Sequence record: NC_047777.1
DNA: 40,291 nucleotides
Strand: one strand, 5' to 3'
DNA from: Escherichia phage ZG49
The notes under the pieces were generated by a model. That model was not told the origin of the DNA, did no database searches, and was given only the letters and a program-made list of their open reading frames with translations. Each line of letters begins with the position of its first letter. Position 1 is the stretch's first letter. This document shows positions 1 to 40,291 of the stretch, piece by piece. The position numbers and the translations under genes were made by a program.

Positions 1-401
1 CCTAAGGCTTGCACCGATGGAAGGAGGGTGATATTAATCATAATCCCTCCAATACAGATAGTCACCGACCATAGATACAGGAGGTATGTAGCATATGGCA
101 AAGACCAAAGCTGTACTTAAAGCTCTGGCGACCAATCGAGCTACATACAGGTTTCTTGCTGCTGTTCTACTTGCTGCTGGCGTTACTGCTGGAAGTAAGT
201 GGGTCGGGTGGGTCGAGACTCTCGTATGTTCTCTGGTGTCTCAGTGTAATTAACGCAATCATGGTAACGATTCATGAGCGGAAGACCTAAGGTCAGTACG
301 TGGATAAAGACTCACTCTACTGACCTTAGCTACTGTAGTCAAGGACTTTAGGTAACACCTTAATAGAAGCTCACCTAGGGTCATCCTACTTATTGGTCTA
401 T
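1..401. repeat. Left direct terminal repeat, identical to 39891-40291
   Basis: Bases 1-401 read identically to 39891-40291; window begins and ends exactly on the repeat; T7-like genomes carry direct terminal repeats. Confidence 0.8.
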
Positions 402-1309: not shown

Positions 1310-1834
1310 ATGAAACTGATAGGCAAAGGCGCGTTCACTAAGTGCTACCTGAAGGATTGCGGAAAGCGTGTACTTCTGGTCTCTTCAGACCCAATCAAGG
1401 AGTGTATGGCGTGGGGATGGTTCCCTGAGTCTTCACTGTTCCCTGAAGTCAAGATGATTGAGGTGGGCACGTATGAGATGGACTACATGCCACCAACACG
1501 AGGTCTCAAGGCGCATTTAGATGACGACCAGTGGCAACTCTATCAGGTGCTGCGAGATTGCTTCTCACGGTCTCCGGTATTCTCTCGACCTGCTGACCTG
1601 TATCACAAGTGGTACGAGATATTCCAAGCTGCACACGACAGGTCTGAGACCGAGACTGTGCGGGAAGGTCTGATGGATGTACTGATGGCGCTGGACGCTT
1701 GCGCTAACTTCGGGTCTGACATTCAGTTTGAGATAAGCCCACGAAATGTACGGGCTGTGAATGGTAAGCTGATACTAGTGGATTGTTTCTTCCTTGTGTC
1801 CAAGCTGCCAGAGGTGAGGGCGTTAAGATGGTAA
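1310..1834 (+). CDS. gp0.7-like serine/threonine protein kinase (kinase domain only, 174 aa)
   Basis: Glycine-rich loop IGKGAFTKCY resembles T7 gp0.7 LGNGHFSAAY; further similarity (VLRDCF, ILVDCFF); RBS AAGGA upstream; first gene after early promoters. Confidence 0.7.
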   Translation: MKLIGKGAFTKCYLKDCGKRVLLVSSDPIKECMAWGWFPESSLFPEVKMIEVGTYEMDYMPPTRGLKAHLDDDQWQLYQVLRDCFSRSPVFSRPADLYHKWYEIFQAAHDRSETETVREGLMDVLMALDACANFGSDIQFEISPRNVRAVNGKLILVDCFFLVSKLPEVRALRW

Positions 1835-2289
1835 CTTATGGTCTCTGCCAGCACCACGTCACCAACGCCCGGCTTATGGTCGAGACCGGGCAGTTAGACC
1901 ACGAGATGACGACCAGTGGCAACTCTATCAGGTGCTGCGAGATTGCTTCTCACGGTCTCCGGTATTCTCTCGACCTGCTGACCTGTATCACAAGTGGTAC
2001 GAGATATTCCAAGCTGCACACGACAGGTCTGAGACCGAGACTGTGCGGGAAGGTCTGATGGATGTACTGATGGCGCTGGACGCTTGCGCTAACTTCGGGT
2101 CTGACATTCAGTTTGAGATAAGCCCACGAAATGTACGGGCTGTGAATGGTAAGCTGATACTAGTGGATTGTTTCTTCCTTGTGTCCAAGCTGCCAGAGGT
2201 GAGGGCGTTAAGATGGTAACTTATGGTCTCTGCCAGCACCACGTCACCAACGCCCGGCTTATGGTCGAGACCGGGCAGTTAGACCACGA
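1520..2289. repeat. Tandem duplication A: two identical 385-bp copies (1520-1904, 1905-2289)
   Basis: Direct reading; ORFs 1310-1834 and 1932-2219 share an identical C-terminal 95 aa; 1783-2058 and 2168-2362 share their N-terminus. Confidence 0.9.
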
Positions 2290-7867: not shown

Positions 7868-8122
7868 ATGTTTAAGAACTTAATGTTCAATCGTTATACC
7901 AGTACATTCCACCTGTCTCACAACCCATTAGCTTGCATTAAGCGCAACGAGAAGCTGGGCTACTTCGGGAAGGCCGTTAAGCTGTCACCTACAGTCTTCG
8001 CTCTGATTACTCCGGGCAAAGCTGAAGAGGCTCGCCAGAAGCGTGCGACCCACGTACCTGTGGTCTACACTAAGTGGCCTCGAGTTCGTCTGTTCGTTGA
8101 GTTCGTGAAGGAGGTGTTCTGA
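7868..8122 (+). CDS. gp1.6-like hypothetical protein (84 aa)
   Basis: RBS AAGGAGG; position between ligase and gp1.7. Confidence 0.5.
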   Translation: MFKNLMFNRYTSTFHLSHNPLACIKRNEKLGYFGKAVKLSPTVFALITPGKAEEARQKRATHVPVVYTKWPRVRLFVEFVKEVF

Positions 8123-8854
8123 TGGGATGTATAGCTTGCTTAGAGAAACCAGAGGTAACTCCTACAGATGACCAACCTTCCACTGAGTCAATCGACGCTG
8201 TCCGCAAGCCGTCCCACTATCAGGTATTTGACGGAGTGGAGTCCATTGAGATTATCGCTCGGTCCATGACTGTCAGCGAGTTCCGTGGGTTCTGCATGGG
8301 TAACGTCCTGAAGTATCGACTCCGAGCTGGTAAGAAGTCCGAGCTGGCTACTATGGAGAAGGACCTGAACAAAGCGGACTTCTATCAGGAGCTGTTCGAC
8401 CTGAGCTGGGCTACTTCGGGAAGGCCGTTAAGCTGTCACCTACAGTCTTCGCTCTGATTACTCCGGGCAAAGCTGAAGAGGCTCGCCAGAAGCGTGCGAC
8501 CCACGTACCTGTGGTCTACACTAAGTGGCCTCGAGTTCGTCTGTTCGTTGAGTTCGTGAAGGAGGTGTTCTGATGGGATGTATAGCTTGCTTAGAGAAAC
8601 CAGAGGTAACTCCTACAGATGACCAACCTTCCACTGAGTCAATCGACGCTGTCCGCAAGCCGTCCCACTATCAGGTATTTGACGGAGTGGAGTCCATTGA
8701 GATTATCGCTCGGTCCATGACTGTCAGCGAGTTCCGTGGGTTCTGCATGGGTAACGTCCTGAAGTATCGACTCCGAGCTGGTAAGAAGTCCGAGCTGGCT
8801 ACTATGGAGAAGGACCTGAACAAAGCGGACTTCTATCAGGAGCTGTTCGACCTG
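7953..8854. repeat. Tandem duplication B: two identical 451-bp copies (7953-8403, 8404-8854)
   Basis: Direct reading; ORFs 8122-8457 and 8573-8881 share their first 94 aa. Confidence 0.9.
8122..8457 (+). pseudogene. Chimeric gp1.7 copy created by duplication B (native C-terminus replaced by out-of-frame gp1.6 sequence)
   Basis: Identical to 8573-8881 until ...QELFDL, then diverges at the duplication junction. Confidence 0.6.
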
Positions 8855-9221: not shown

Positions 9222-9920
9222 ATGGCTAAAGAGCAACTGAAGACTTTCACCACTCCGGTAGCTGGTATCGTTGAGCCTTACGCATGGCTGAACAAAGCAG
9301 ACACCAAGTTTAACGAGCGTGGTGAGCATAAGGTTAACCTGACATTCGACCTGAGCAACCCGAAGGTCCGTAAGATGATTGATGTCTTACAGAAGATTCA
9401 CGACGATGCGTATGCGAAAGCACTTGCAGACCACGAGAAGAACCCACCTCAGGTTCAGCGTGGCAAGAAGCCTATTGAACCACGAGAAGGCGACATGCCG
9501 TGGATTGAGAATGGTGACGGTACTGTTACCATGAAGTTTAAATGCTTCGCGTCTTACCTGAAGGATGGTAAGTCTGAGCCTATCATATTACGGTTCTACG
9601 ACACCGATGCTAAGTTAATCCGTGACGTCCCGAATATTGGCGCTGGCTCAAAGCTGAAGGTCAAGTTTAAAGTCCTGCCGTTTAAGTGGAACGCTGCGAC
9701 TGGTGCAAGCGTTAAGCTACAGCTTGAGTCCTGCCTTCTGGTAGAACTGAAGGAGTGGAAAGGCGATGGTGCTGGTGGCGATGGTGGTTGGGGTGATGAT
9801 GAAGACCTCGGTACTGGCTACAAAGCGTCAACCGATGGTGACTTCGGGTCTGATGACTTCGGTGACGATGGTTCCGAAGGTGGTGACGACTCCAACTCTG
9901 GTGGCGATTACGACTTCTAA
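9222..9920 (+). CDS. Single-stranded DNA-binding protein (gp2.5-like, 232 aa)
   Basis: Same length as T7 gp2.5; acidic Gly/Asp-rich C-terminal tail ending in aromatic F (GGDYDF). Confidence 0.9.
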   Translation: MAKEQLKTFTTPVAGIVEPYAWLNKADTKFNERGEHKVNLTFDLSNPKVRKMIDVLQKIHDDAYAKALADHEKNPPQVQRGKKPIEPREGDMPWIENGDGTVTMKFKCFASYLKDGKSEPIILRFYDTDAKLIRDVPNIGAGSKLKVKFKVLPFKWNAATGASVKLQLESCLLVELKEWKGDGAGGDGGWGDDEDLGTGYKASTDGDFGSDDFGDDGSEGGDDSNSGGDYDF

Positions 9921-9976
9921 TGAAACTTAAAGAGAAACTAGAGGCTTACTCTGAGGTTTCTCCTGGTGGATGTAGT

Positions 9977-10426
9977 ATGAGTAGAGGACATCAAGTAGGT
10001 GCTTATCGCTCTGGACTCGAAGCAAAGAACCAAGAGTGGCTTGAGAAGAATGGCGTAAAAGCTGAATACGAAGCATATAAAATAGGCTACGTAGTACCAT
10101 CCAGCGACCACTTCTACACACCAGATTTTATCCTTCCTAACGGTATCATCGTGGAGACCAAAGGTCTCTTCGATAGTGATGACCGTAAGAAGCACCTTCT
10201 GGTACGAGAACAGCACCCTGAGTTAGACATTCGGTTCGTGTTCTCAAGTTCACGCTCCAAGTTATACAAGGGGTCTCCGACCACGTATGGCGCATGGTGC
10301 GAAAAGAACGGCTTTAAGTTTGCCGACAAGTTTATCCCGGTTGAGTGGCTGAGAGAGGTGACTGTACGTCTACCTTCAGGTATTCTCATCCCCAAGAAGA
10401 AAGGAGTTAAGGATATTCGCACCTAA
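9977..10426 (+). CDS. Endonuclease I (gp3-like Holliday junction resolvase, 149 aa from ATG 9977)
   Basis: Strong similarity to T7 gp3 (GAYRSGLE, YTPDF, PNGI.VETKGL..SDDRKKHLL.REQHPELDIR.VFSSSR.KLYKGSPT); track ORF starts earlier at 9920. Confidence 0.85.
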   Translation: MSRGHQVGAYRSGLEAKNQEWLEKNGVKAEYEAYKIGYVVPSSDHFYTPDFILPNGIIVETKGLFDSDDRKKHLLVREQHPELDIRFVFSSSRSKLYKGSPTTYGAWCEKNGFKFADKFIPVEWLREVTVRLPSGILIPKKKGVKDIRT

Positions 10427-11009
10427 AGCGAGACCCTTAAGTTTATGGCTGAAAAATACTCAGTAAGTGAGACAACCATAAGTCGAATCAGGAACAACAA
10501 GAGGTGGAAATAATAATGGGAAGTAAAGTACAATTCATGCCACGCAAGTCAACTGACGCTATCTTCGTTCACTGTTCGGCTACCAAGCCAGAGATGGACA
10601 TCGGGGTAGAGACCATCCGTATGGTGTTCTCAAGTTCACGCTCCAAGTTATACAAGGGGTCTCCGACCACGTATGGCGCATGGTGCGAAAAGAACGGCTT
10701 TAAGTTTGCCGACAAGTTTATCCCGGTTGAGTGGCTGAGAGAGGTGACTGTACGTCTACCTTCAGGTATTCTCATCCCCAAGAAGAAAGGAGTTAAGGAT
10801 ATTCGCACCTAAAGCGAGACCCTTAAGTTTATGGCTGAAAAATACTCAGTAAGTGAGACAACCATAAGTCGAATCAGGAACAACAAGAGGTGGAAATAAT
10901 AATGGGAAGTAAAGTACAATTCATGCCACGCAAGTCAACTGACGCTATCTTCGTTCACTGTTCGGCTACCAAGCCAGAGATGGACATCGGGGTAGAGACC
11001 ATCCGTATG
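10238..11009. repeat. Tandem duplication C: two identical 386-bp copies (10238-10623, 10624-11009)
   Basis: Direct reading; ORF 10504-10812 has the lysozyme N-terminus fused to the endonuclease I C-terminus. Confidence 0.9.
10504..10812 (+). pseudogene. Chimeric ORF: lysozyme N-terminal 40 aa fused to endonuclease I C-terminal 62 aa
   Basis: N-terminus identical to 10890-11360 and C-terminus identical to 9920-10426; switch at the duplication junction. Confidence 0.6.
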
Positions 11010-23770: not shown

Positions 23771-26127
23771 TGCCACTAATTACTCAATCAATCAAGAACC
23801 TTAAGGGTGGCATTAGCCAACAGCCTGACATACTGAGGTTCTCAGACCAAGGCGAGTCACAGGTTAACTGCTGGTCATCAGAGAGTGATGGCCTCCAGAA
23901 GCGTCCACCTACAGTCTTCAAGCGACGTCTTAACATCGACGTTGGGAGCAACCCTAAGTTCCACCTGATTAACCGTGATGAGCATGAGCAGTATTACATC
24001 GTGTTCAATGGGTCCAACATTCAGGTAGTTGACTTGAGTGGTAATCAATACTCAGTGTCCGGTGCGGTAGATTACGTTAAGTCCTCCAACCCACGAGATG
24101 ACATCCGTGTCGTTACCGTGGCAGACTATACGTTCGTCGTTAACCGTAAGGTTGTCGTCAAAGGTGGAAGCGAGAAGTCACACTCTGGTTATAACCGCAA
24201 AGCACGAGCTTTAATTAACCTGCGTGGTGGGCAGTATGGTCGAACCCTTAAGGTGGGAATCAACGGTGGCGTCAAGGTCTCGCATAAGCTACCAGCAGGT
24301 AATGATGCCGAGAATGACCCACCTAAGGTGGACGCTCAAGCCATTGGTGCAGCTCTGAGAGACCTTCTTGTTCAGTCCTATCCTGACTTCACGTTTGACC
24401 TTGGGTCTGGCTTCCTGCTAATCACAGCTCCTTCAGGGACCGACATTAACTCAGTGGAGACGGAGGATGGCTACGCTAACCAGCTAATAAGCCCAGTCCT
24501 AGACACTGTGCAGACAATCTCTAAACTACCTCTTGCCGCTCCTAATGGGTATATCATTAAGATTCAAGGTGAAACAAACAGTAGCGCCGATGAATACTAC
24601 GTGATGTATGACTCCAACACTAAGACGTGGAAGGAGACAGTGGAGCCGGGAGTTGTCACTGGGTTCGATAACACCACAATGCCACACGCTCTGGTACGAC
24701 AATCTGATGGCTCCTTTGAGTTCAAGACTCTGGATTGGTCCAAGCGTGGTGCTGGTAACGATGACACAAACCCTATGCCTAGCTTCGTGGATGCTGCGAT
24801 TAATGATGTGTTCTTCTACAGGAACAGGCTAGGGTTCTTGTCGGGTGAGAACGTAATCATGAGCCGTTCAGCCAGCTACTTTGCGTTCTTCCCTAAGAGT
24901 GTGGCGACACTGAGTGATGGTGACCCTATTGATGTAGCTGTAAGTCACCCTCGAATCTCAATCCTTAAGTATGCCGTTCCGTTTAGTGAGCAGCTACTAC
25001 TTTGGTCGGATGAGGTTCAGTTCGTGATGACAAGCTCTGGGGTCCTTACCTCGAAGTCTATCCAGCTTGATGTAGGCTCAGAGTTTGCCTTAGGTGATAA
25101 TGCCAGACCGTTCGCTGTAGGACGCTCAGTCTTCTTCTCAGCTCCTCGTGGGTCATTCACCAGCATTAAGCGATACTTCGCTGTAGCTGATGTGTCTGAT
25201 GTGAAGGATGCTGATGATACAACCGGTCACGTATTGTCCTACATCCCTAACGGGGTGTTTGATATTCAAGGTACAGGGACTGAGAACTACATCTGCGTCA
25301 ACTCTACAGGTGCATACAACCGTATCTACATCTACAAGTTCTTGTTTAAGGACGGCGTACAGCTTCAAGCCTCTTGGTCACACTGGGAGTTCCCTAAAGA
25401 TGATAAGATTCTGGCGTCTGCTTCTATTGGCTCTACCATGTTCATCGTTCGTCAGCATCAAGGAGGGGTAGACATTGAGCACCTTAAGTTCATCAAGGAG
25501 GCAACTGACTTCCCGTCAGAGCCATATAGACTACACATTGACTCCAAGGTGTCTATGGTAATTCCAATTGGCTCATATAATGCTGACACCTATAAGACTA
25601 CGGTTGACATTGGTGCTGCTTATGGTGGCAACGCTCCGTCTCCCGGTCGGTACTATCTGATTGACAGTCAGGGTGCGTATGTGGACCTTGGGGACTTGAC
25701 CAGTATCTCTACTGTGATTACCCTCAACGGCGATTGGTCAGGACGTACAGTGTTCATCGGACGGCCCTATCTGATGTCCTACAAGTTCTCACGGTTCCTG
25801 ATTAAGATTGAAGATGATAGGGGCACTCAGTCTGAAGACACTGGTCGTCTACAGCTTCGTCGGGCTTGGGTAAACTACAAGGACACTGGCGCTCTGAGAC
25901 TCATTGTCAGAAACGGTGAGCGGGAGTTCGTGAACACCTTTAACGGGTACACCCTTGGTCAGCAAACCATCGGGACTACAAACATCGGTGACGGGCAGTA
26001 TCGCTTCGCTATGAATGGTAACGCATTAACCACGAGTCTAACCTTAGAGTCCGACTATCCTACCCCAGTGTCAATCGTTGGTTGTGGCTGGGAGGCGTCA
26101 TACGCTAAGAAAGCTCGTTCCGTTTAA
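23770..26127 (+). CDS. Tail tubular protein B (gp12-like)
   Basis: 785 aa versus T7 gp12 794 aa; conserved position; start overlaps gp11 stop. Confidence 0.9.
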   Translation: MPLITQSIKNLKGGISQQPDILRFSDQGESQVNCWSSESDGLQKRPPTVFKRRLNIDVGSNPKFHLINRDEHEQYYIVFNGSNIQVVDLSGNQYSVSGAVDYVKSSNPRDDIRVVTVADYTFVVNRKVVVKGGSEKSHSGYNRKARALINLRGGQYGRTLKVGINGGVKVSHKLPAGNDAENDPPKVDAQAIGAALRDLLVQSYPDFTFDLGSGFLLITAPSGTDINSVETEDGYANQLISPVLDTVQTISKLPLAAPNGYIIKIQGETNSSADEYYVMYDSNTKTWKETVEPGVVTGFDNTTMPHALVRQSDGSFEFKTLDWSKRGAGNDDTNPMPSFVDAAINDVFFYRNRLGFLSGENVIMSRSASYFAFFPKSVATLSDGDPIDVAVSHPRISILKYAVPFSEQLLLWSDEVQFVMTSSGVLTSKSIQLDVGSEFALGDNARPFAVGRSVFFSAPRGSFTSIKRYFAVADVSDVKDADDTTGHVLSYIPNGVFDIQGTGTENYICVNSTGAYNRIYIYKFLFKDGVQLQASWSHWEFPKDDKILASASIGSTMFIVRQHQGGVDIEHLKFIKEATDFPSEPYRLHIDSKVSMVIPIGSYNADTYKTTVDIGAAYGGNAPSPGRYYLIDSQGAYVDLGDLTSISTVITLNGDWSGRTVFIGRPYLMSYKFSRFLIKIEDDRGTQSEDTGRLQLRRAWVNYKDTGALRLIVRNGEREFVNTFNGYTLGQQTIGTTNIGDGQYRFAMNGNALTTSLTLESDYPTPVSIVGCGWEASYAKKARSV

Positions 26128-26154
26128 CTTATTGAATGGCCTATAGATTTACCT

Positions 26155-26173
26155 TAACTATCACTATAGGGAC
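26155..26173 (+). promoter_or_regulatory. Phage RNAP promoter TTAACTATCACTATAGGGA (phi13-like)
   Basis: Consensus match; intergenic. Confidence 0.7.
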
Positions 26174-26213
26174 TATAGGCCCTTTAAGTTATAATACTTT
26201 AATAGGAGACTTT

Positions 26214-26540
26214 ATGTATATTCGCAAGGCTACGGAACCGGATGTCCACTACTTTCTGTGGCATCTTTCAGCAGATGATGTTAATGAGTGCAAAGCAAAC
26301 TACGGGTCAACCGTTGGTCTCTCTGAAAGACTGCTTAAGCACCTATCTCCGTCATCTGTGGTTTTAACGAACGGTGTAGGCGAAGTGTTTGCCTATGGTG
26401 GAAACCAAGGGGATAACGTATGGTTCTTGACTTCAGGTCTGGTCTATAAGCTGAGACCTAAAGAGAAGCGAGAGTTCATAAAGCGTATCTCTGAGTACAG
26501 GGACTTAATGTTAGACCAATACGGGACCATCTGGAACTGA
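26214..26540 (+). CDS. gp13-like internal virion/assembly protein (108 aa from ATG 26214)
   Basis: ATG 26214 with AGGAG RBS downstream of the promoter; the track ORF start at 26136 would precede the promoter. Confidence 0.55.
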   Translation: MYIRKATEPDVHYFLWHLSADDVNECKANYGSTVGLSERLLKHLSPSSVVLTNGVGEVFAYGGNQGDNVWFLTSGLVYKLRPKEKREFIKRISEYRDLMLDQYGTIWN

Positions 26541-26585
26541 GTATGTGCTATATGCAGGACTTCAGGCCCTAGCAGAGGACTATGC

Positions 26586-26735
26586 GTGGACCATTGCCAT
26601 GACTCCGGTAAGGTGCGTGGTATTCTGTGCCACACCTGCAACATTAAGCTGACACGTCGAAACTATCCGTCTAACTGTGATAATTTTGACGAGAAGGCTG
26701 CCGAGTATCTGGCTACCAGCCAGAAGGGGGATTAG
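26586..26735 (+). CDS. Endonuclease VII-like (His-Me finger) small protein; start unclear (GTG 26586, or continuous with gp13 frame from 26541)
   Basis: CAICRTSG...CVDHCHDSGKVRGILCHTCNIKL...AAEYL fits the CxxC...DHxH..GKVRGLLCxxCN pattern of T4 endonuclease VII family proteins; same frame as gp13 across one TGA. Confidence 0.45.
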   Translation: MDHCHDSGKVRGILCHTCNIKLTRRNYPSNCDNFDEKAAEYLATSQKGD

Positions 26736-26762
26736 AAAATTTGCGAGCCAATTAGCATTGGG

Positions 26763-27326
26763 ATGGGAATCATGTCTGTAGCAGGGGCCACTATGTCCGC
26801 ATCCCAACAGGCCAAGGCTGAAGGAGCAGCAATTGACGCTCAGAACCGACAGGCTCAGGAAATGGTTAAGCAGATGAACTACTCTGACGCCAACCTGAAG
26901 ATGCAGGAGCGAGACCTGAAGGAGCAGCAGATGGCTGAACTGACAGAGACCACTCTAAACGGTATCCGCAATCAGGGGATGGTCCGAGCTGCAGTGGCTG
27001 AGTCAGGTCTGGAAGGTAACTCTATGGACAGGATTGAACGTCAGGTCAAAGGAGATACAGTCAAGGAGCGAGCAGGGATTACCGAAAGTTACAACCGCGA
27101 CTATGCGGCTATCTTCGGGAACCGTATCGCCAACATTGAGAACACAAAGTCTGCTATCCGTGGTCAGGGTAAAATCATCAAGACCAGCCCACTGGCTCAT
27201 GCACTTAATGTTGCTACAGCAGGGATGCAAGGTTACGCCGCTGGTAAGTCAATCTCTGGAGCGTCAAGCTCTGGTGGTGCTGCACCAATTAGTGCTGCTA
27301 AAGGCACACCTACAGGTCATAGCTAA
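26763..27326 (+). CDS. Internal virion protein A (gp14-like)
   Basis: 187 aa versus T7 gp14 196 aa; position. Confidence 0.7.
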   Translation: MGIMSVAGATMSASQQAKAEGAAIDAQNRQAQEMVKQMNYSDANLKMQERDLKEQQMAELTETTLNGIRNQGMVRAAVAESGLEGNSMDRIERQVKGDTVKERAGITESYNRDYAAIFGNRIANIENTKSAIRGQGKIIKTSPLAHALNVATAGMQGYAAGKSISGASSSGGAAPISAAKGTPTGHS

Positions 27327-33576: not shown

Positions 33577-35637
33577 ATGTCCACGATTACACAATTCCCT
33601 TCAGGAAACACTCAGTACAGGATTGAGTTCGACTACCTAGCCAGAACGTTTGTTGTTGTTACGCTGGTGAATAGCTCTAACCCTACCCTGAACCGTGTAC
33701 TGGAAGTTGGTCGAGATTACCGATTCCTTAACCCAACGATGATTGAGATGTTGGTTGACCAATCAGGTTTCGACATCGTTCGTATTCACCGTCAGACTGG
33801 AACTGACTTAGTGGTAGACTTCAGGAATGGCTCAGTGTTGACAGCTAGTGACCTGACCAATTCAGAGCTTCAGGCTATCCATATTGCAGAAGAAGGTCGA
33901 GACCAAACGGTTGACTTAGCGAAGGAATATGCCGATGCTGCTGGTAGCTCTGCTGGCAACGCTAAGGATAGCGAGGACGAAGCACGCCGAATCGCTGCGA
34001 GTATCAGGGAAGCTGGTCTAATTGGCTATATTACCCGTCGCTCCTTCGAGAAAGGCTACAACGTTACAACATGGAGCGAGGTCCTGCTATGGGAAGAGGA
34101 TGGTGATTATTACCGCTGGGATGGTACGCTTCCAAAGAACGTTCCTGCTGGTTCAACTCCTGAAACTTCCGGTGGGATTGGATTAGGTGCGTGGGTTAGT
34201 GTTGGTGATGCTGCTTTAAGAAGTCAGATTTCAAACCCGGAAGGGGCAATACTCTACCCGGAATTGCAGATGGCAAGATGGCGTGATGAGGGTGATGTTC
34301 GAGGCTGGGGTGCTAAAGGGGATGGTGTAACAGATAGTACGGAGAATATAGCTGCTTCACTAAATTCTCAAAAAGCTGTCGTAGCATCAGAAGGTGTATT
34401 CTCTAGTTCTGGTATTAATAGTAATTACTGTAACTTAGACGGTAGAGGCAGTGGTGTACTAAGTCACCGTTCAAGTACAGGTAACTACTTAGTATTTAAC
34501 AATCTACGCTCAGGTCGCTTAAGTAATATTACGGTAGAAAGTAATAAGGCGACCGATACCACTCAAGGGCAGCAGGTATCTCTTGCTGGTGGCAGTGATG
34601 TTACTATAAGTGATGTTAATTTCTCAAACGTTAAGGGCGCTGGTTTCAGTTTAATCACATACCCTAATGATGCACCCTCTGATGGGCTTATGATTAAAGG
34701 CATTCGAGGTAGCTACTCCGGCTATGCTACTAATAAGGCGGCTGGATGCATACTTGCTGATTCCTCAGTTAACTCCCTCATAAATAACGTCATTGCTAAG
34801 AACTACCCTCAGTTCGGGGCTGTAGAACTGAAAGGTACAGCCAGTTATAACATAGTCAGCAATGTTATAGGGGCAGACTGCCAGCATGTAACTTACAACG
34901 GTACAGAAGGGTCAATAGCTCCCTCTAACAACCTTATCAATGGGGTAGTGGCTAATAATCCTAAATATGCAGCGGTTGTTGCAGGCAAAGGTAGTACCAA
35001 CTTAATCTCCGATGTGCTTGTAGATTTCTCAACCTCTGATGCTAGGCAGGCTCATGGTGTTACAGTAGAAGGTTCTGATAACGTCATAAATAATGTGCTT
35101 ATGTCAGGGTGTGATGGTACTAACTCTTTAGGGCAAGCTCAGACTGCTACAATTGCGCGCTTTATAGATACGGCTAATAACAACTATGCGTCTGTATTTC
35201 CTAGCTACAGTGCTACAGGTGTTATTACTTTCGAATCAGGTTCTACCCGTAACTTCGTAGAGGTAAAGCATCCGGGAAGGAGAAACGACCTTCTCAGTGC
35301 TACTGGTACTATTGAAGGTAAAGTTACTATTGACGGCACTAGTAATAGCAACGTAGTGCACGCTCCTGCATTAGGACAGTACATAGGCAGTATGTCCGGT
35401 AGGTTCGAATGGCGGATTAAGTCCATGTCACTTCCGTCAGGCGTTCTTACCTCGGCTGATAAGTACAGAATGCTTGGGGATGGTGCTGTGTCATTAGCTG
35501 TAGGTGGGGGTACTTCTTCTCAAGTTCGCCTATTTACTTCTGATGGTACTTATCGGACAGTATCACTCACCAACGGTAACGTGCGTCTTCCTACCAGTAG
35601 CACAGGTTATTTGCAGTTAGGTTCTAGCTCCCTCTAA
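33577..35637 (+). CDS. Tailspike (gp17-like), N-terminal 686-aa fragment truncated by tandem duplication D
   Basis: N-terminal 150 aa resemble the T7 gp17 adaptor domain (EFDYLARTFVVVTL, DYRF, VDFRNGSVL.ASDL, IAEEGRD); then a beta-helix-like region (WGAKGDGVTD); reading frame breaks at the duplication junction at 35625. Confidence 0.8.
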   Translation: MSTITQFPSGNTQYRIEFDYLARTFVVVTLVNSSNPTLNRVLEVGRDYRFLNPTMIEMLVDQSGFDIVRIHRQTGTDLVVDFRNGSVLTASDLTNSELQAIHIAEEGRDQTVDLAKEYADAAGSSAGNAKDSEDEARRIAASIREAGLIGYITRRSFEKGYNVTTWSEVLLWEEDGDYYRWDGTLPKNVPAGSTPETSGGIGLGAWVSVGDAALRSQISNPEGAILYPELQMARWRDEGDVRGWGAKGDGVTDSTENIAASLNSQKAVVASEGVFSSSGINSNYCNLDGRGSGVLSHRSSTGNYLVFNNLRSGRLSNITVESNKATDTTQGQQVSLAGGSDVTISDVNFSNVKGAGFSLITYPNDAPSDGLMIKGIRGSYSGYATNKAAGCILADSSVNSLINNVIAKNYPQFGAVELKGTASYNIVSNVIGADCQHVTYNGTEGSIAPSNNLINGVVANNPKYAAVVAGKGSTNLISDVLVDFSTSDARQAHGVTVEGSDNVINNVLMSGCDGTNSLGQAQTATIARFIDTANNNYASVFPSYSATGVITFESGSTRNFVEVKHPGRRNDLLSATGTIEGKVTIDGTSNSNVVHAPALGQYIGSMSGRFEWRIKSMSLPSGVLTSADKYRMLGDGAVSLAVGGGTSSQVRLFTSDGTYRTVSLTNGNVRLPTSSTGYLQLGSSSL

Positions 35638-36333
35638 CAACCTTATCAATGGGGTAGTGGCTAATAATCCTAAATATGCAGCGGTTGTTGCAGGCAAAGG
35701 TAGTACCAACTTAATCTCCGATGTGCTTGTAGATTTCTCAACCTCTGATGCTAGGCAGGCTCATGGTGTTACAGTAGAAGGTTCTGATAACGTCATAAAT
35801 AATGTGCTTATGTCAGGGTGTGATGGTACTAACTCTTTAGGGCAAGCTCAGACTGCTACAATTGCGCGCTTTATAGATACGGCTAATAACAACTATGCGT
35901 CTGTATTTCCTAGCTACAGTGCTACAGGTGTTATTACTTTCGAATCAGGTTCTACCCGTAACTTCGTAGAGGTAAAGCATCCGGGAAGGAGAAACGACCT
36001 TCTCAGTGCTACTGGTACTATTGAAGGTAAAGTTACTATTGACGGCACTAGTAATAGCAACGTAGTGCACGCTCCTGCATTAGGACAGTACATAGGCAGT
36101 ATGTCCGGTAGGTTCGAATGGCGGATTAAGTCCATGTCACTTCCGTCAGGCGTTCTTACCTCGGCTGATAAGTACAGAATGCTTGGGGATGGTGCTGTGT
36201 CATTAGCTGTAGGTGGGGGTACTTCTTCTCAAGTTCGCCTATTTACTTCTGATGGTACTTATCGGACAGTATCACTCACCAACGGTAACGTGCGTCTTCC
36301 TACCAGTAGCACAGGTTATTTGCAGTTAGGTTC
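34916..36333. repeat. Tandem duplication D: two identical 709-bp copies (34916-35624, 35625-36333) inside the tailspike gene
   Basis: Direct reading; ORFs 33577-35637 and 35657-36817 share about 230 identical residues. Confidence 0.9.
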
Positions 36334-36817
36334 CAATGCAATGACCCCAGATAGTACTAATACATACGCATTAGGTTCCGCAAGTCGAGCATGGTCTGGC
36401 GGTTTTACTCAATCAGCATTCACTGTTGTCTCAGATGCTAGGGATAAAACAGAGCCTCTTAATATCTCAGATGCTTTACTGGATGCTTGGTCTGAAGTTG
36501 ACTTTGTGCAGTTTCAGTACTTGGACCGAATTGAGGAGAAGGGTGCAGACTCAGCTAGATGGCACTTCGGCATCATCGCTCAGCGAGCTACGGAGGCCTT
36601 CGAACGTCACGGTATAGATGCACATCGCTATGGCTTCCTGTGCTTCGACAGTTGGGATGATGTGTACGAGGAAGATGCCAATGGCTCTCGTAAACTGATT
36701 ACACCAGCAGGTTCCCGCTATGGTATTCGTTACGAGGAAGTACTGATATTAGAGGCTGCGTTGATGCGGCGTACTATTAAGCGTATGCAGGAAGCATTAG
36801 CTGTTATGTCTAAGTGA
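35657..36817 (+). CDS. Tailspike C-terminal fragment (386 aa) including an intramolecular-chaperone-like domain
   Basis: C-terminus GSASRAWSGGFTQSAFTVVSDARDKTEP... resembles peptidase S74-type chaperone domains of phage tailspikes; begins at an internal Met created by the duplication. Confidence 0.65.
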   Translation: MANNPKYAAVVAGKGSTNLISDVLVDFSTSDARQAHGVTVEGSDNVINNVLMSGCDGTNSLGQAQTATIARFIDTANNNYASVFPSYSATGVITFESGSTRNFVEVKHPGRRNDLLSATGTIEGKVTIDGTSNSNVVHAPALGQYIGSMSGRFEWRIKSMSLPSGVLTSADKYRMLGDGAVSLAVGGGTSSQVRLFTSDGTYRTVSLTNGNVRLPTSSTGYLQLGSNAMTPDSTNTYALGSASRAWSGGFTQSAFTVVSDARDKTEPLNISDALLDAWSEVDFVQFQYLDRIEEKGADSARWHFGIIAQRATEAFERHGIDAHRYGFLCFDSWDDVYEEDANGSRKLITPAGSRYGIRYEEVLILEAALMRRTIKRMQEALAVMSK

Positions 36818-39890: not shown

Positions 39891-40291
39891 CCTAAGGCTT
39901 GCACCGATGGAAGGAGGGTGATATTAATCATAATCCCTCCAATACAGATAGTCACCGACCATAGATACAGGAGGTATGTAGCATATGGCAAAGACCAAAG
40001 CTGTACTTAAAGCTCTGGCGACCAATCGAGCTACATACAGGTTTCTTGCTGCTGTTCTACTTGCTGCTGGCGTTACTGCTGGAAGTAAGTGGGTCGGGTG
40101 GGTCGAGACTCTCGTATGTTCTCTGGTGTCTCAGTGTAATTAACGCAATCATGGTAACGATTCATGAGCGGAAGACCTAAGGTCAGTACGTGGATAAAGA
40201 CTCACTCTACTGACCTTAGCTACTGTAGTCAAGGACTTTAGGTAACACCTTAATAGAAGCTCACCTAGGGTCATCCTACTTATTGGTCTAT
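39891..40291. repeat. Right direct terminal repeat, identical to 1-401
   Basis: Direct comparison of both ends. Confidence 0.8.

What the first reader, a model, noticed from the sequence alone, without database searches (positions are those of the whole stretch)
26538..26735. Endonuclease VII-like ORF in frame with gp13 across a single TGA
Directly after the gp13 stop (TGA 26538-26540) the same frame continues for 65 codons encoding a zinc-finger/His-Me finger pattern typical of T4 endonuclease VII-like proteins. There is no in-frame ATG; the only ATG (26543) is in the +1 frame and stops after 9 codons. Options are stop-codon readthrough giving a gp13 fusion, an internal GTG start at 26586, or a nonsense/indel lesion. 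A second junction-resolvase-type nuclease inside the structural module is unusual for a T7-like genome, which already has endonuclease I.
Basis: partly seen in the sequence, partly recalled or inferred. Interest (0 to 1): 0.6.

Follow-up and report, generated by a model that had tools for sequence, protein, structure and literature searches.

The report
Truncated homing-nuclease gene remnant after gp13
The nuclease-like reading frame after gene 13 is the surviving back half of a known selfish nuclease gene of T7-like phages, joined to a shortened gene 13 by a 320-base gap that itself creates the TGA, so it is a dead remnant or a sequence-record error and not a recoding signal.

Summary
TGA 26538-26540 is followed in frame by 64 sense codons and TAG, and they match Pfam Endonuclease_7 (E 3.9e-12).

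The match covers only profile positions 26-81 of 82. The window is a Kayfunavirus (K1F-like) genome. Alignment with relatives shows a 320-bp gap. It removes the last ~45 codons of gene 13, its most conserved part, and the first 64 codons of a 128-aa "gene 13.5" endonuclease VII-type gene. The TGA is the junction itself: T from gp13 codon TAC plus GA from 13.5 codon GGA.

- T26549 lies in a conserved Ala codon, so it is not an indel.
- No relative or public contig shares the junction.
- No RNA structure supports readthrough.
- Gene 13.5 is a known, patchily distributed accessory gene of T7-group phages and probably a homing endonuclease. It has decayed independently in at least three other lineages.

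The record also carries four perfect tandem duplications, one of which frameshifts the tail-spike gene, and two more unique deletions. The gap may therefore be an assembly or record artefact rather than a biological deletion. Either way the feature is ordinary and of low interest.

The parts
26154..26172 (+). Phage RNA-polymerase promoter upstream of gene 13. It transcribes gene 13, the remnant and gene 14.
   Evidence: TTAACTATCACTATAGGGA is one of 9 matches in the window, against 0.01 expected by chance. It is conserved in all relatives.
26214..26540 (+). Gene 13 (internal virion protein A / Gp13 family), C-terminally truncated to 108 codons and ending in the junction-made TGA.
   Evidence: Pfam PF11090 matches profile positions 2-61 of 86 only, while relatives match 2-86. 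Full-length homologues among the 96 clusters found are 147-160 aa; the six shorter entries are not counterparts of this truncation. The missing YVWSGNKSHI.FLKLLGAKFH..T.SPVTGERFQLFTISKE is the best conserved part of the protein. The start at 26214 follows the SD TAGGAGAC (compare).
26538..26539 (.). Junction of a 320-bp gap relative to genomes that carry gene 13.5. T26538 comes from gp13 codon TAC, and G26539-A26540 come from 13.5 codon GGA.
   Evidence: MAFFT alignment A1. In pairwise blastn the left match of each close relative (five of ten) ends at window 26538, and the right match of each relative with an intact 13.5 resumes at 26536-26541. The deleted 320 nt are not found elsewhere in the window.
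26541..26735 (+). 3' remnant of gene 13.5 (Endonuclease_7 / DHHRN beta-beta-alpha-Me nuclease): codons 65-128 plus TAG. It has no start codon of its own.
   Evidence: Pfam PF02945 positions 26-81 of 82. 89.6% nt and 59/64 aa identity to the same part of the 128-aa Penshu1 gene. It keeps CAIC...DHCH...R...CHTCN but lacks the N-terminal zinc finger and linker helix.
26724..26741 (+). Shine-Dalgarno-like AAGGGGGA inside the last codons of the remnant, then TAG, AAA and ATT 26739-26741. The ATT sits where genomes without 13.5 have the GTG/ATG start of gene 14.
   Evidence: Codon-register comparison of 11 genomes plus 5 metagenomic contigs. All four decayed copies of 13.5 keep this 3' end.
26739..27326 (+). 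Gene 14 (internal virion protein B). The start is uncertain: ATT 26739 (195 codons), or ATG 26763 or ATG 26772.
   Evidence: ORF list. Homologous gp14 of 195 aa starts at the aligned GTG/ATG in PRF-SP2 and R1. Pfam T7_gp14 is recorded on neighbouring genes of related contigs.

Best explanation
The 64-codon frame is the 3' half of a 'gene 13.5' endonuclease VII-type (DHHRN, beta-beta-alpha-Me) gene.

This gene is a free-standing, probably homing, endonuclease gene. A minority of T7-group phages carry it between genes 13 and 14.

In this sequence, 320 bp are missing relative to intact carriers. The missing stretch runs from codon 109 of gene 13 to codon 64 of gene 13.5. Joining the two ends puts the frames in register and creates TGA at the seam.

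The remnant has no start codon, and it has lost its N-terminal zinc finger and linker helix. It is therefore not made as a working nuclease. It is transcribed passively from the gene 13 promoter.

The only likely remaining role is at its 3' end, which carries the ribosome-binding site in front of gene 14.

Shown here: homology, truncation on both sides, the origin of the TGA, and uniqueness of the junction.

Inferred: homing function of the intact gene, and lack of expression of the remnant.

Unresolved: whether the 320-bp gap is a real deletion in the phage (about 45%) or an error of the sequence record (about 55%).
For: - Pfam and PHROG matches cover only the C-terminal two thirds of the domain.
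- Alignment with Penshu1, ST21, HC13, CY1 and pO91 shows the 320-bp gap and how the TGA arises.
- gp13 is truncated within its most conserved segment, and no comparable truncation appears among 96 homologue clusters.
- Most Kayfunaviruses, including the closest relatives IME177, R1 and PRF-SP2, lack 13.5 altogether.
- Three other independent decayed copies exist and all keep the 3' end: KM02 60 aa, P0097 101 aa, and P0098 39 aa in four samples.
- dN/dS of the remnant against Penshu1 is 0.10, the same as between intact copies, so the lesion is recent or not biological.
- The intact protein resembles Hpy99I over residues 3-122 (E 1.2e-4) and T4 endo VII only over its catalytic core.
- The window has its own T7-type endonuclease I.
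- A homologue lies inside the split DNA polymerase gene of phage Berlin, which PMC6083498 describes as a group I intron. That paper also defines the DHHRN homing family.
- For the artefact reading: the record has four perfect tandem duplications. One of them frameshifts tail-spike gene 17; removing one copy restores an 843-aa ORF 97% identical to R1. There are also two further unique deletions.
Against: - The remnant is free of stops and frameshifts and keeps every catalytic and zinc residue, so residual function cannot be excluded from sequence alone.
- A plausible SD (AGAGGA) precedes GTG 26586.
- No reads are available, so neither a real deletion nor an artefact is demonstrated.
- The homing activity of any gene 13.5 protein has not been shown experimentally, as far as the papers read here go.
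Confidence: 0.88

Rival explanations
1. Programmed or leaky UGA readthrough yields a gp13(1-108)-X-nuclease(64 aa) fusion of about 173 aa with a biological role.
For: The two frames are in register across a single UGA. UGA is the leakiest stop codon in E. coli (own knowledge). By coincidence, the gp13 residues before the seam (LMLDQYGTIWN) resemble the helix that precedes CAIC in the intact nuclease (LTQDEYDSILRSQDG); tblastn extended its alignment across the stop.
Against: - The junction is unique to this sequence. It is absent from 50,697 phage records and from the viral contigs, and the only hits in metagenome and genome contigs are chance 21-mers.
- There is no stable or unusual RNA structure downstream (z -0.36) and no Rfam match.
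- In-frame register has a 1-in-3 prior.
- The fusion would lack the conserved gp13 C-terminus and the nuclease's N-terminal DNA-binding finger.
Confidence: 0.03
2. A separately initiated mini-nuclease of 49 aa starts at GTG 26586.
For: GTG 26586 is in frame, with AGAGGA six bases upstream.
Against: - The product would begin after the CAIC pair and so keep only two of the four zinc ligands of the fold. In T4 endo VII the CX2-4C and CX2C pairs together bind one zinc (PMC6083498).
- Intact relatives have a similar internal sequence (CGAGGGCTATGCGTG), so the SD-like motif is ordinary coding sequence.
- No such 49-aa protein is on record.
Confidence: 0.03
3. A point lesion (a nonsense mutation, or a 1-nt insertion at T26549) disrupts an ORF that once started at ATG 26543.
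For: Removing T26549 would give ATG TGC ATA TGC... (MCIC...), which looks like a start.
Against: Intact relatives read GGA GTG TGC GCT ATA TGC (G V C A I C) here. T26549 is the third base of the conserved Ala codon, and the real start codon lies 64 codons upstream in those genomes.
Confidence: 0.01

Closest known systems
Gene 13.5 'endonuclease VII' of T7-group phages (Penshu1 QEG09813, phiYeO3-12 13.5, EcoDS1 gp13.5, Ro45lw gp39, Klebsiella phage 6998, Yersinia phage Rambo)
   Same: Same genomic slot between genes 13 and 14. 59 of 64 residues are identical to the Penshu1 allele. Same Pfam family.
   Different: The window keeps only codons 65-128, has no start codon, and the missing stretch also takes 45 codons of gene 13.
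Other decayed copies of the same gene: KM02 (60 aa), metagenomic P0097 (101 aa), P0098 (39 aa, four samples)
   Same: Internal loss of nuclease sequence with retention of the 3' end and the ATT/SD region in front of gene 14.
   Different: Those deletions are in frame, stay inside 13.5, and leave gp13 full length (P0097's short contig does not include gene 13). This one runs into gene 13.
DHHRN family homing endonucleases (F-CphI of cyanophage S-PM2; the intron-encoded homologue in Yersinia phage Berlin)
   Same: The D-H-x-H...R...N motif and the CxxC...CxxC zinc site are present in the remnant. The genome also encodes endonuclease I, the criterion the authors used to assign such proteins to homing rather than resolution.
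   Different: Cleavage by any 13.5 protein is untested here. The copy in the window is truncated.
Restriction endonuclease Hpy99I (PDB 3FC3)
   Same: It is the best solved-structure match of the intact 128-aa relative, over residues 3-122. That span covers an N-terminal zinc finger plus the beta-beta-alpha-Me repeat.
   Different: No adjacent methylase. This is a phage accessory gene. The similarity is weak (E 1.2e-4).
T4 endonuclease VII (gp49), a Holliday junction resolvase
   Same: Shared catalytic core.
   Different: The match covers T4 residues 9-65 only. The 13.5 proteins end about 25 residues after the catalytic Asn and so have no counterpart of the C-terminal domain of the 157-aa T4 enzyme. 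The phage has a separate resolvase, endonuclease I.

Membership tests
Pfam PF02945 Endonuclease_7 / DHHRN beta-beta-alpha-Me nucleases | HMM score above the curated cut-off | tested here: met
   46.4 bits against a cut-off of 23.6, E 3.9e-12.
Pfam PF02945 Endonuclease_7 / DHHRN beta-beta-alpha-Me nucleases | Catalytic D, H, H, R, N (T4 D40, H41, H43, R54, N62) and four Cys zinc ligands | tested here: met
   Remnant residues D16, H17, H19, R25, N33 and C2, C5, C29, C32. The intact relative aligns to T4 endo VII at these positions. The motif definition comes from PMC6083498.
Pfam PF02945 Endonuclease_7 / DHHRN beta-beta-alpha-Me nucleases | Complete domain in an ORF with its own start | tested here: not met
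   Only profile positions 26-81 of 82 are present. There is no in-frame ATG. Intact relatives are 128 aa.
T4 endonuclease VII-type junction resolvase | C-terminal domain beyond the catalytic core (the T4 enzyme is 157 aa) | tested here: not met
   The PDB match of the intact relative covers T4 residues 9-65 only, and the protein ends at residue 128.
T4 endonuclease VII-type junction resolvase | Serves as the phage's resolvase, with no endonuclease I present | tested here: not met
   The window encodes a complete Phage_endo_I at 9920-10426, E 7.9e-76. The reasoning follows PMC6083498.
Free-standing homing endonuclease gene | Presence/absence polymorphism at one fixed site in otherwise collinear genomes | tested here: met
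   Carriers are Penshu1, ST21, HC13, CY1, pO91 and Ro45lw. PRF-SP2, R1, IME177 and most of the 219 matching records lack the gene.
Free-standing homing endonuclease gene | Degenerate copies in some lineages | tested here: met
   KM02, P0097, P0098 and the window itself.
Free-standing homing endonuclease gene | Site-specific cleavage of the allele that lacks the gene | not testable with these tools
   Needs purified protein and a substrate containing the 13/14 junction.
Programmed stop-codon readthrough | The stop codon and downstream frame are conserved among relatives | tested here: not met
   No other sequence shares the junction.
Programmed stop-codon readthrough | Stimulatory RNA structure or known motif after the stop | tested here: not met
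   Fold z-score -0.36. No Rfam match at E up to 1.

The most novel reading that the evidence does not exclude
The 320-bp deletion is real and the phage is viable. That would show that the highly conserved C-terminal 45 residues of gp13 are dispensable, or that they are functionally replaced by low-level UGA readthrough into the nuclease remnant, giving a virion-associated gp13-nuclease fusion.
Probability: 0.03. Interest if true: 0.5.

Novelty: already known. Interest (0 to 1): 0.12.

Why it matters
As a biological finding it matters little. It is one more decayed copy of a known selfish nuclease gene. It adds to the picture of gain, decay and loss at the gene 13/14 junction of K1F-like phages.

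Its practical value is as a warning. This sequence carries several gene-breaking structural anomalies, so features that depend on its exact structure should not be interpreted before the reads are checked.

The side observation has more biological content than the finding itself. In all carriers of 13.5 examined, an ATT codon replaces the start codon of gene 14, preceded by a ribosome-binding site inside the nuclease gene.

Tried and rejected
- Exact-protein look-ups of the truncated gp13 (108 and 134 aa), the 49-aa ORF, gp14 and gp12 found nothing on record. No independent assembly of this phage could be examined.
- Scans for the junction sequence gave no hit in viral contigs. The 8 hits in metagenome and genome contigs match only the 21-mer itself.
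- Literature searches for the phenotype of T7 gene 13 mutants returned nothing usable; the gp13 hits were mostly gp130 or gene tables. That T7 gene 13 was defined by conditional-lethal mutants is my own knowledge, not checked here.
- The homology search with the 64-aa remnant gave only 4 hits because of the word index, though two were informative decayed copies.
- RNA fold, Rfam, and promoter and terminator scans around the TGA showed nothing above background.
- The missing gp13 C-terminus and nuclease N-terminus were searched for elsewhere in the window and not found.
- Microhomology at the seam is at most 2 nt (AC), with only loose similarity nearby (TCTGGAAC against TCTCAGGAC). This does not discriminate a real deletion from an artefact.
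- Structure prediction was not run. It would not decide between the explanations.

Full report
**What the sequence shows**

The window is a K1F-like podovirus genome (genus Kayfunavirus, Autographiviridae). Its closest relatives are 93-98% identical over most of its length.

- Gene 12 ends at 26127.
- A phage promoter lies at 26154-26172. It is one of nine copies, against 0.01 expected by chance.
- Gene 13 starts at ATG 26214 behind TAGGAGAC.
- Its frame stops at TGA 26538-26540, then continues for 64 sense codons to TAG 26733-26735.
- Those 64 residues match Pfam Endonuclease_7 (46.4 bits, E 3.9e-12) and PHROG endonuclease VII families.

The frame has no ATG. ATG 26543 is out of frame and closes after nine codons. 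GTG 26586 is in frame. Other out-of-frame ATGs exist.

**What it is**

The Pfam match starts at profile position 26 of 82, and gp13 matches only positions 2-61 of 86 of its own family. Both genes are therefore cut.

Alignment with the few Kayfunaviruses that carry a gene between 13 and 14 explains this (Penshu1, ST21, HC13, CY1, pO91). The window lacks 320 bp, running from gp13 codon 109 to codon 64 of a 128-aa endonuclease VII-type gene. In pairwise blastn the left match of each close relative ends at 26538, and the right match of each relative with an intact 13.5 resumes at 26536-26541.

Relatives read TGG AAC T|AC GTG in gene 13 and GAC G|GA GTG TGC in the nuclease gene. Joined, these give TGG AAC TGA GT(A) TG(T). 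The stop codon is made by the seam.

The nuclease gene is in the +2 frame relative to gene 13, and 320 = 2 mod 3. That is why the frames now coincide. The prior for this is one in three.

T26549 is the last base of the conserved Ala codon in GVCAIC, so the indel idea fails. The missing DNA is not elsewhere in the window.

**Consequences for gene 13**

The search returned 96 homologue clusters, and the full-length ones are 147-160 aa. The six shorter entries are not counterparts of this truncation: two are labelled partial, three cover only 31-56% of the query, and the sixth covers 68%.

The residues missing here (YVWSGNKSHI.FLKLLGAKFH..T.SPVTGERFQLFTISKE) include most of the nearly invariant columns of the alignment. 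A 108-aa gp13 is therefore unlikely to be fully functional.

To my knowledge T7 gene 13 was defined by conditional-lethal mutants. The literature searches here did not confirm this.

**What the intact gene is**

The slot between genes 13 and 14 holds an endonuclease VII-type gene in several genera: Kayfunavirus, Teetrevirus (Klebsiella phage 6998) and Teseptimavirus (Yersinia phage Rambo). Proteins named 13.5 are cited for EcoDS1 and phiYeO3-12. A tblastn search finds homologues in 456 phage records.

Most Kayfunaviruses lack the gene, including the window's nearest relatives IME177, R1 and PRF-SP2.

- By sequence, the intact protein's best solved relative is the restriction enzyme Hpy99I. The match spans residues 3-122 and includes an N-terminal zinc finger.
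- T4 endonuclease VII matches only the catalytic core.
- The window has its own complete T7-type endonuclease I.
- A homologue sits inside the split DNA polymerase gene of phage Berlin.
- Fang et al. 2018 (PMC6083498) defined the DHHRN homing endonuclease family from such proteins. They argued that those in phages encoding endonuclease I are not resolvases.

I therefore read gene 13.5 as a free-standing homing endonuclease gene. That is inferred from distribution and homology and has not been tested.

**Decay elsewhere**

Three other decayed copies exist.

- KM02 has an in-frame internal deletion that removes the whole catalytic core (60 aa).
- P0097 lacks 27 residues of the N-terminal finger (101 aa).
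- P0098 is reduced to 39 aa and occurs in four independent samples.

KM02 and the P0098 carriers keep a full gp13. All three keep the last ~30 codons of 13.5.

That 3' end carries AAGGGGGA (AAGGAGGA in Ro45lw), then TAG, AAA or GAA, and ATT. The ATT sits exactly where genomes without the gene have the GTG or ATG start of gene 14, followed by the conserved CEPISIG. The 3' end of 13.5 thus seems to supply the translation start region of gene 14. That would explain why it is retained.

**Is the remnant used?**

It keeps all catalytic and zinc residues, and it shows dN/dS 0.10 against Penshu1, the same as intact copies show among themselves. This indicates only that the lesion is recent relative to the divergence, or that it is not biological.

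- The remnant has no start codon.
- A GTG-26586 product would keep only two of the four zinc ligands.
- The RNA after the TGA folds no better than shuffled sequence (z -0.36), and there is no Rfam match.
- The junction occurs in no other public sequence searched.

Readthrough or a mini-nuclease are therefore possible only as low-probability readings.

**Real deletion or record error?**

An exact-repeat scan made while checking for endonuclease I showed four perfect tandem duplications: 1519-2289 (period 385), 7953-8854 (451), 10238-11009 (386) and 34916-36333 (709). It also showed a 401-bp terminal repeat.

- The three duplications that could be compared are absent from R1 and IME177; the first lies in early-region sequence that does not align to either.
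- The 709-bp duplication frameshifts tail-spike gene 17. Removing one copy restores an 843-aa ORF 97% identical to R1 gp17.
- The window also has a 95-nt deletion at about 16174 that frameshifts a 94-aa ORF.
- It has a 157-nt deletion at about 23079 that removes half of the terminator hairpin after gene 10.
- No listed relative is collinear across either of these two deletions.
- Three of the four duplications have no microhomology at their ends.

A genome with a split tail-spike gene is not expected to be viable. The pattern looks like overlapping pieces concatenated without merging, and non-overlapping pieces joined without a gap marker. On that reading, the 320-bp gap is one more such seam, and the true phage has intact genes 13 and 13.5.

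I put this at slightly more than even odds. Without reads it cannot be settled. Under either reading the feature is not a recoding device and not a new kind of gene.

**Verdict**

The feature is a truncated copy of a known accessory nuclease gene. Interest is low.

Noticed in passing
window 1519-2289, 7953-8854, 10238-11009, 34916-36333: There are four perfect (100% identical) tandem duplications with periods of 385, 451, 386 and 709 bp. The last three are absent from R1 and IME177; the first could not be compared. The 709-bp one frameshifts tail-spike gene 17, splitting it into ORFs 33577-35637 and 35657-36817. Removing one copy restores an 843-aa ORF 97% identical to R1. The pattern looks like an assembly or stitching artefact.
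   Followed up: partly
window about 16174 and about 23079: Two further deletions have no collinear match among the listed relatives. A 95-nt deletion frameshifts a 94-aa ORF downstream of the DNA polymerase gene. A 157-nt deletion removes the end of the small ORF after gene 10 and half of the terminator hairpin.
   Followed up: partly
window 26724-26741; the same place in L001, L002, L004-L008 and L019-L023: In every Kayfunavirus genome examined that carries gene 13.5 or a remnant of it, the codon aligned with the GTG/ATG start of gene 14 is ATT. It is preceded by AAGGGGGA or AAGGAGGA inside the last codons of 13.5 and followed by the conserved CEPISIG. This suggests initiation of gp14 at ATT, or an N-terminally shortened gp14. 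Teetrevirus and Teseptimavirus carriers keep ATG.
   Followed up: partly
L006 909-1091 (KM02); L019-L022 1501-1620; L023 111-416: The same nuclease gene has decayed independently by in-frame internal deletions to 60, 39 and 101 aa. The 39-aa form occurs in four separate samples.
   Followed up: yes
window 10445-10513: A 22-codon ORF (MAEKYSVSETTISRIRNNKRWK) lies between endonuclease I and the amidase gene. At this place R1, TM1 and IME177 have a gene of about 150 aa, and search hits for some other relatives list an HNH endonuclease nearby. It may be another small remnant of a mobile nuclease gene.
   Followed up: no
window 8143-8148: About 229 nt are missing relative to R1 and IME177 at the start of the gene 1.7-like (DUF3310) gene. 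The gap is flanked in R1 by the direct repeat GAGAA, the signature of a natural deletion between short repeats.
   Followed up: no
window 26136-26213: The mechanical ORF for gene 13 starts at ATG 26136, which overlaps the promoter. The real start is ATG 26214 behind TAGGAGAC, as in relatives.
   Followed up: yes
window 1-401 and 39891-40291: A 401-bp exact direct terminal repeat is present. It corresponds to a single copy in the permuted R1 record.
   Followed up: no
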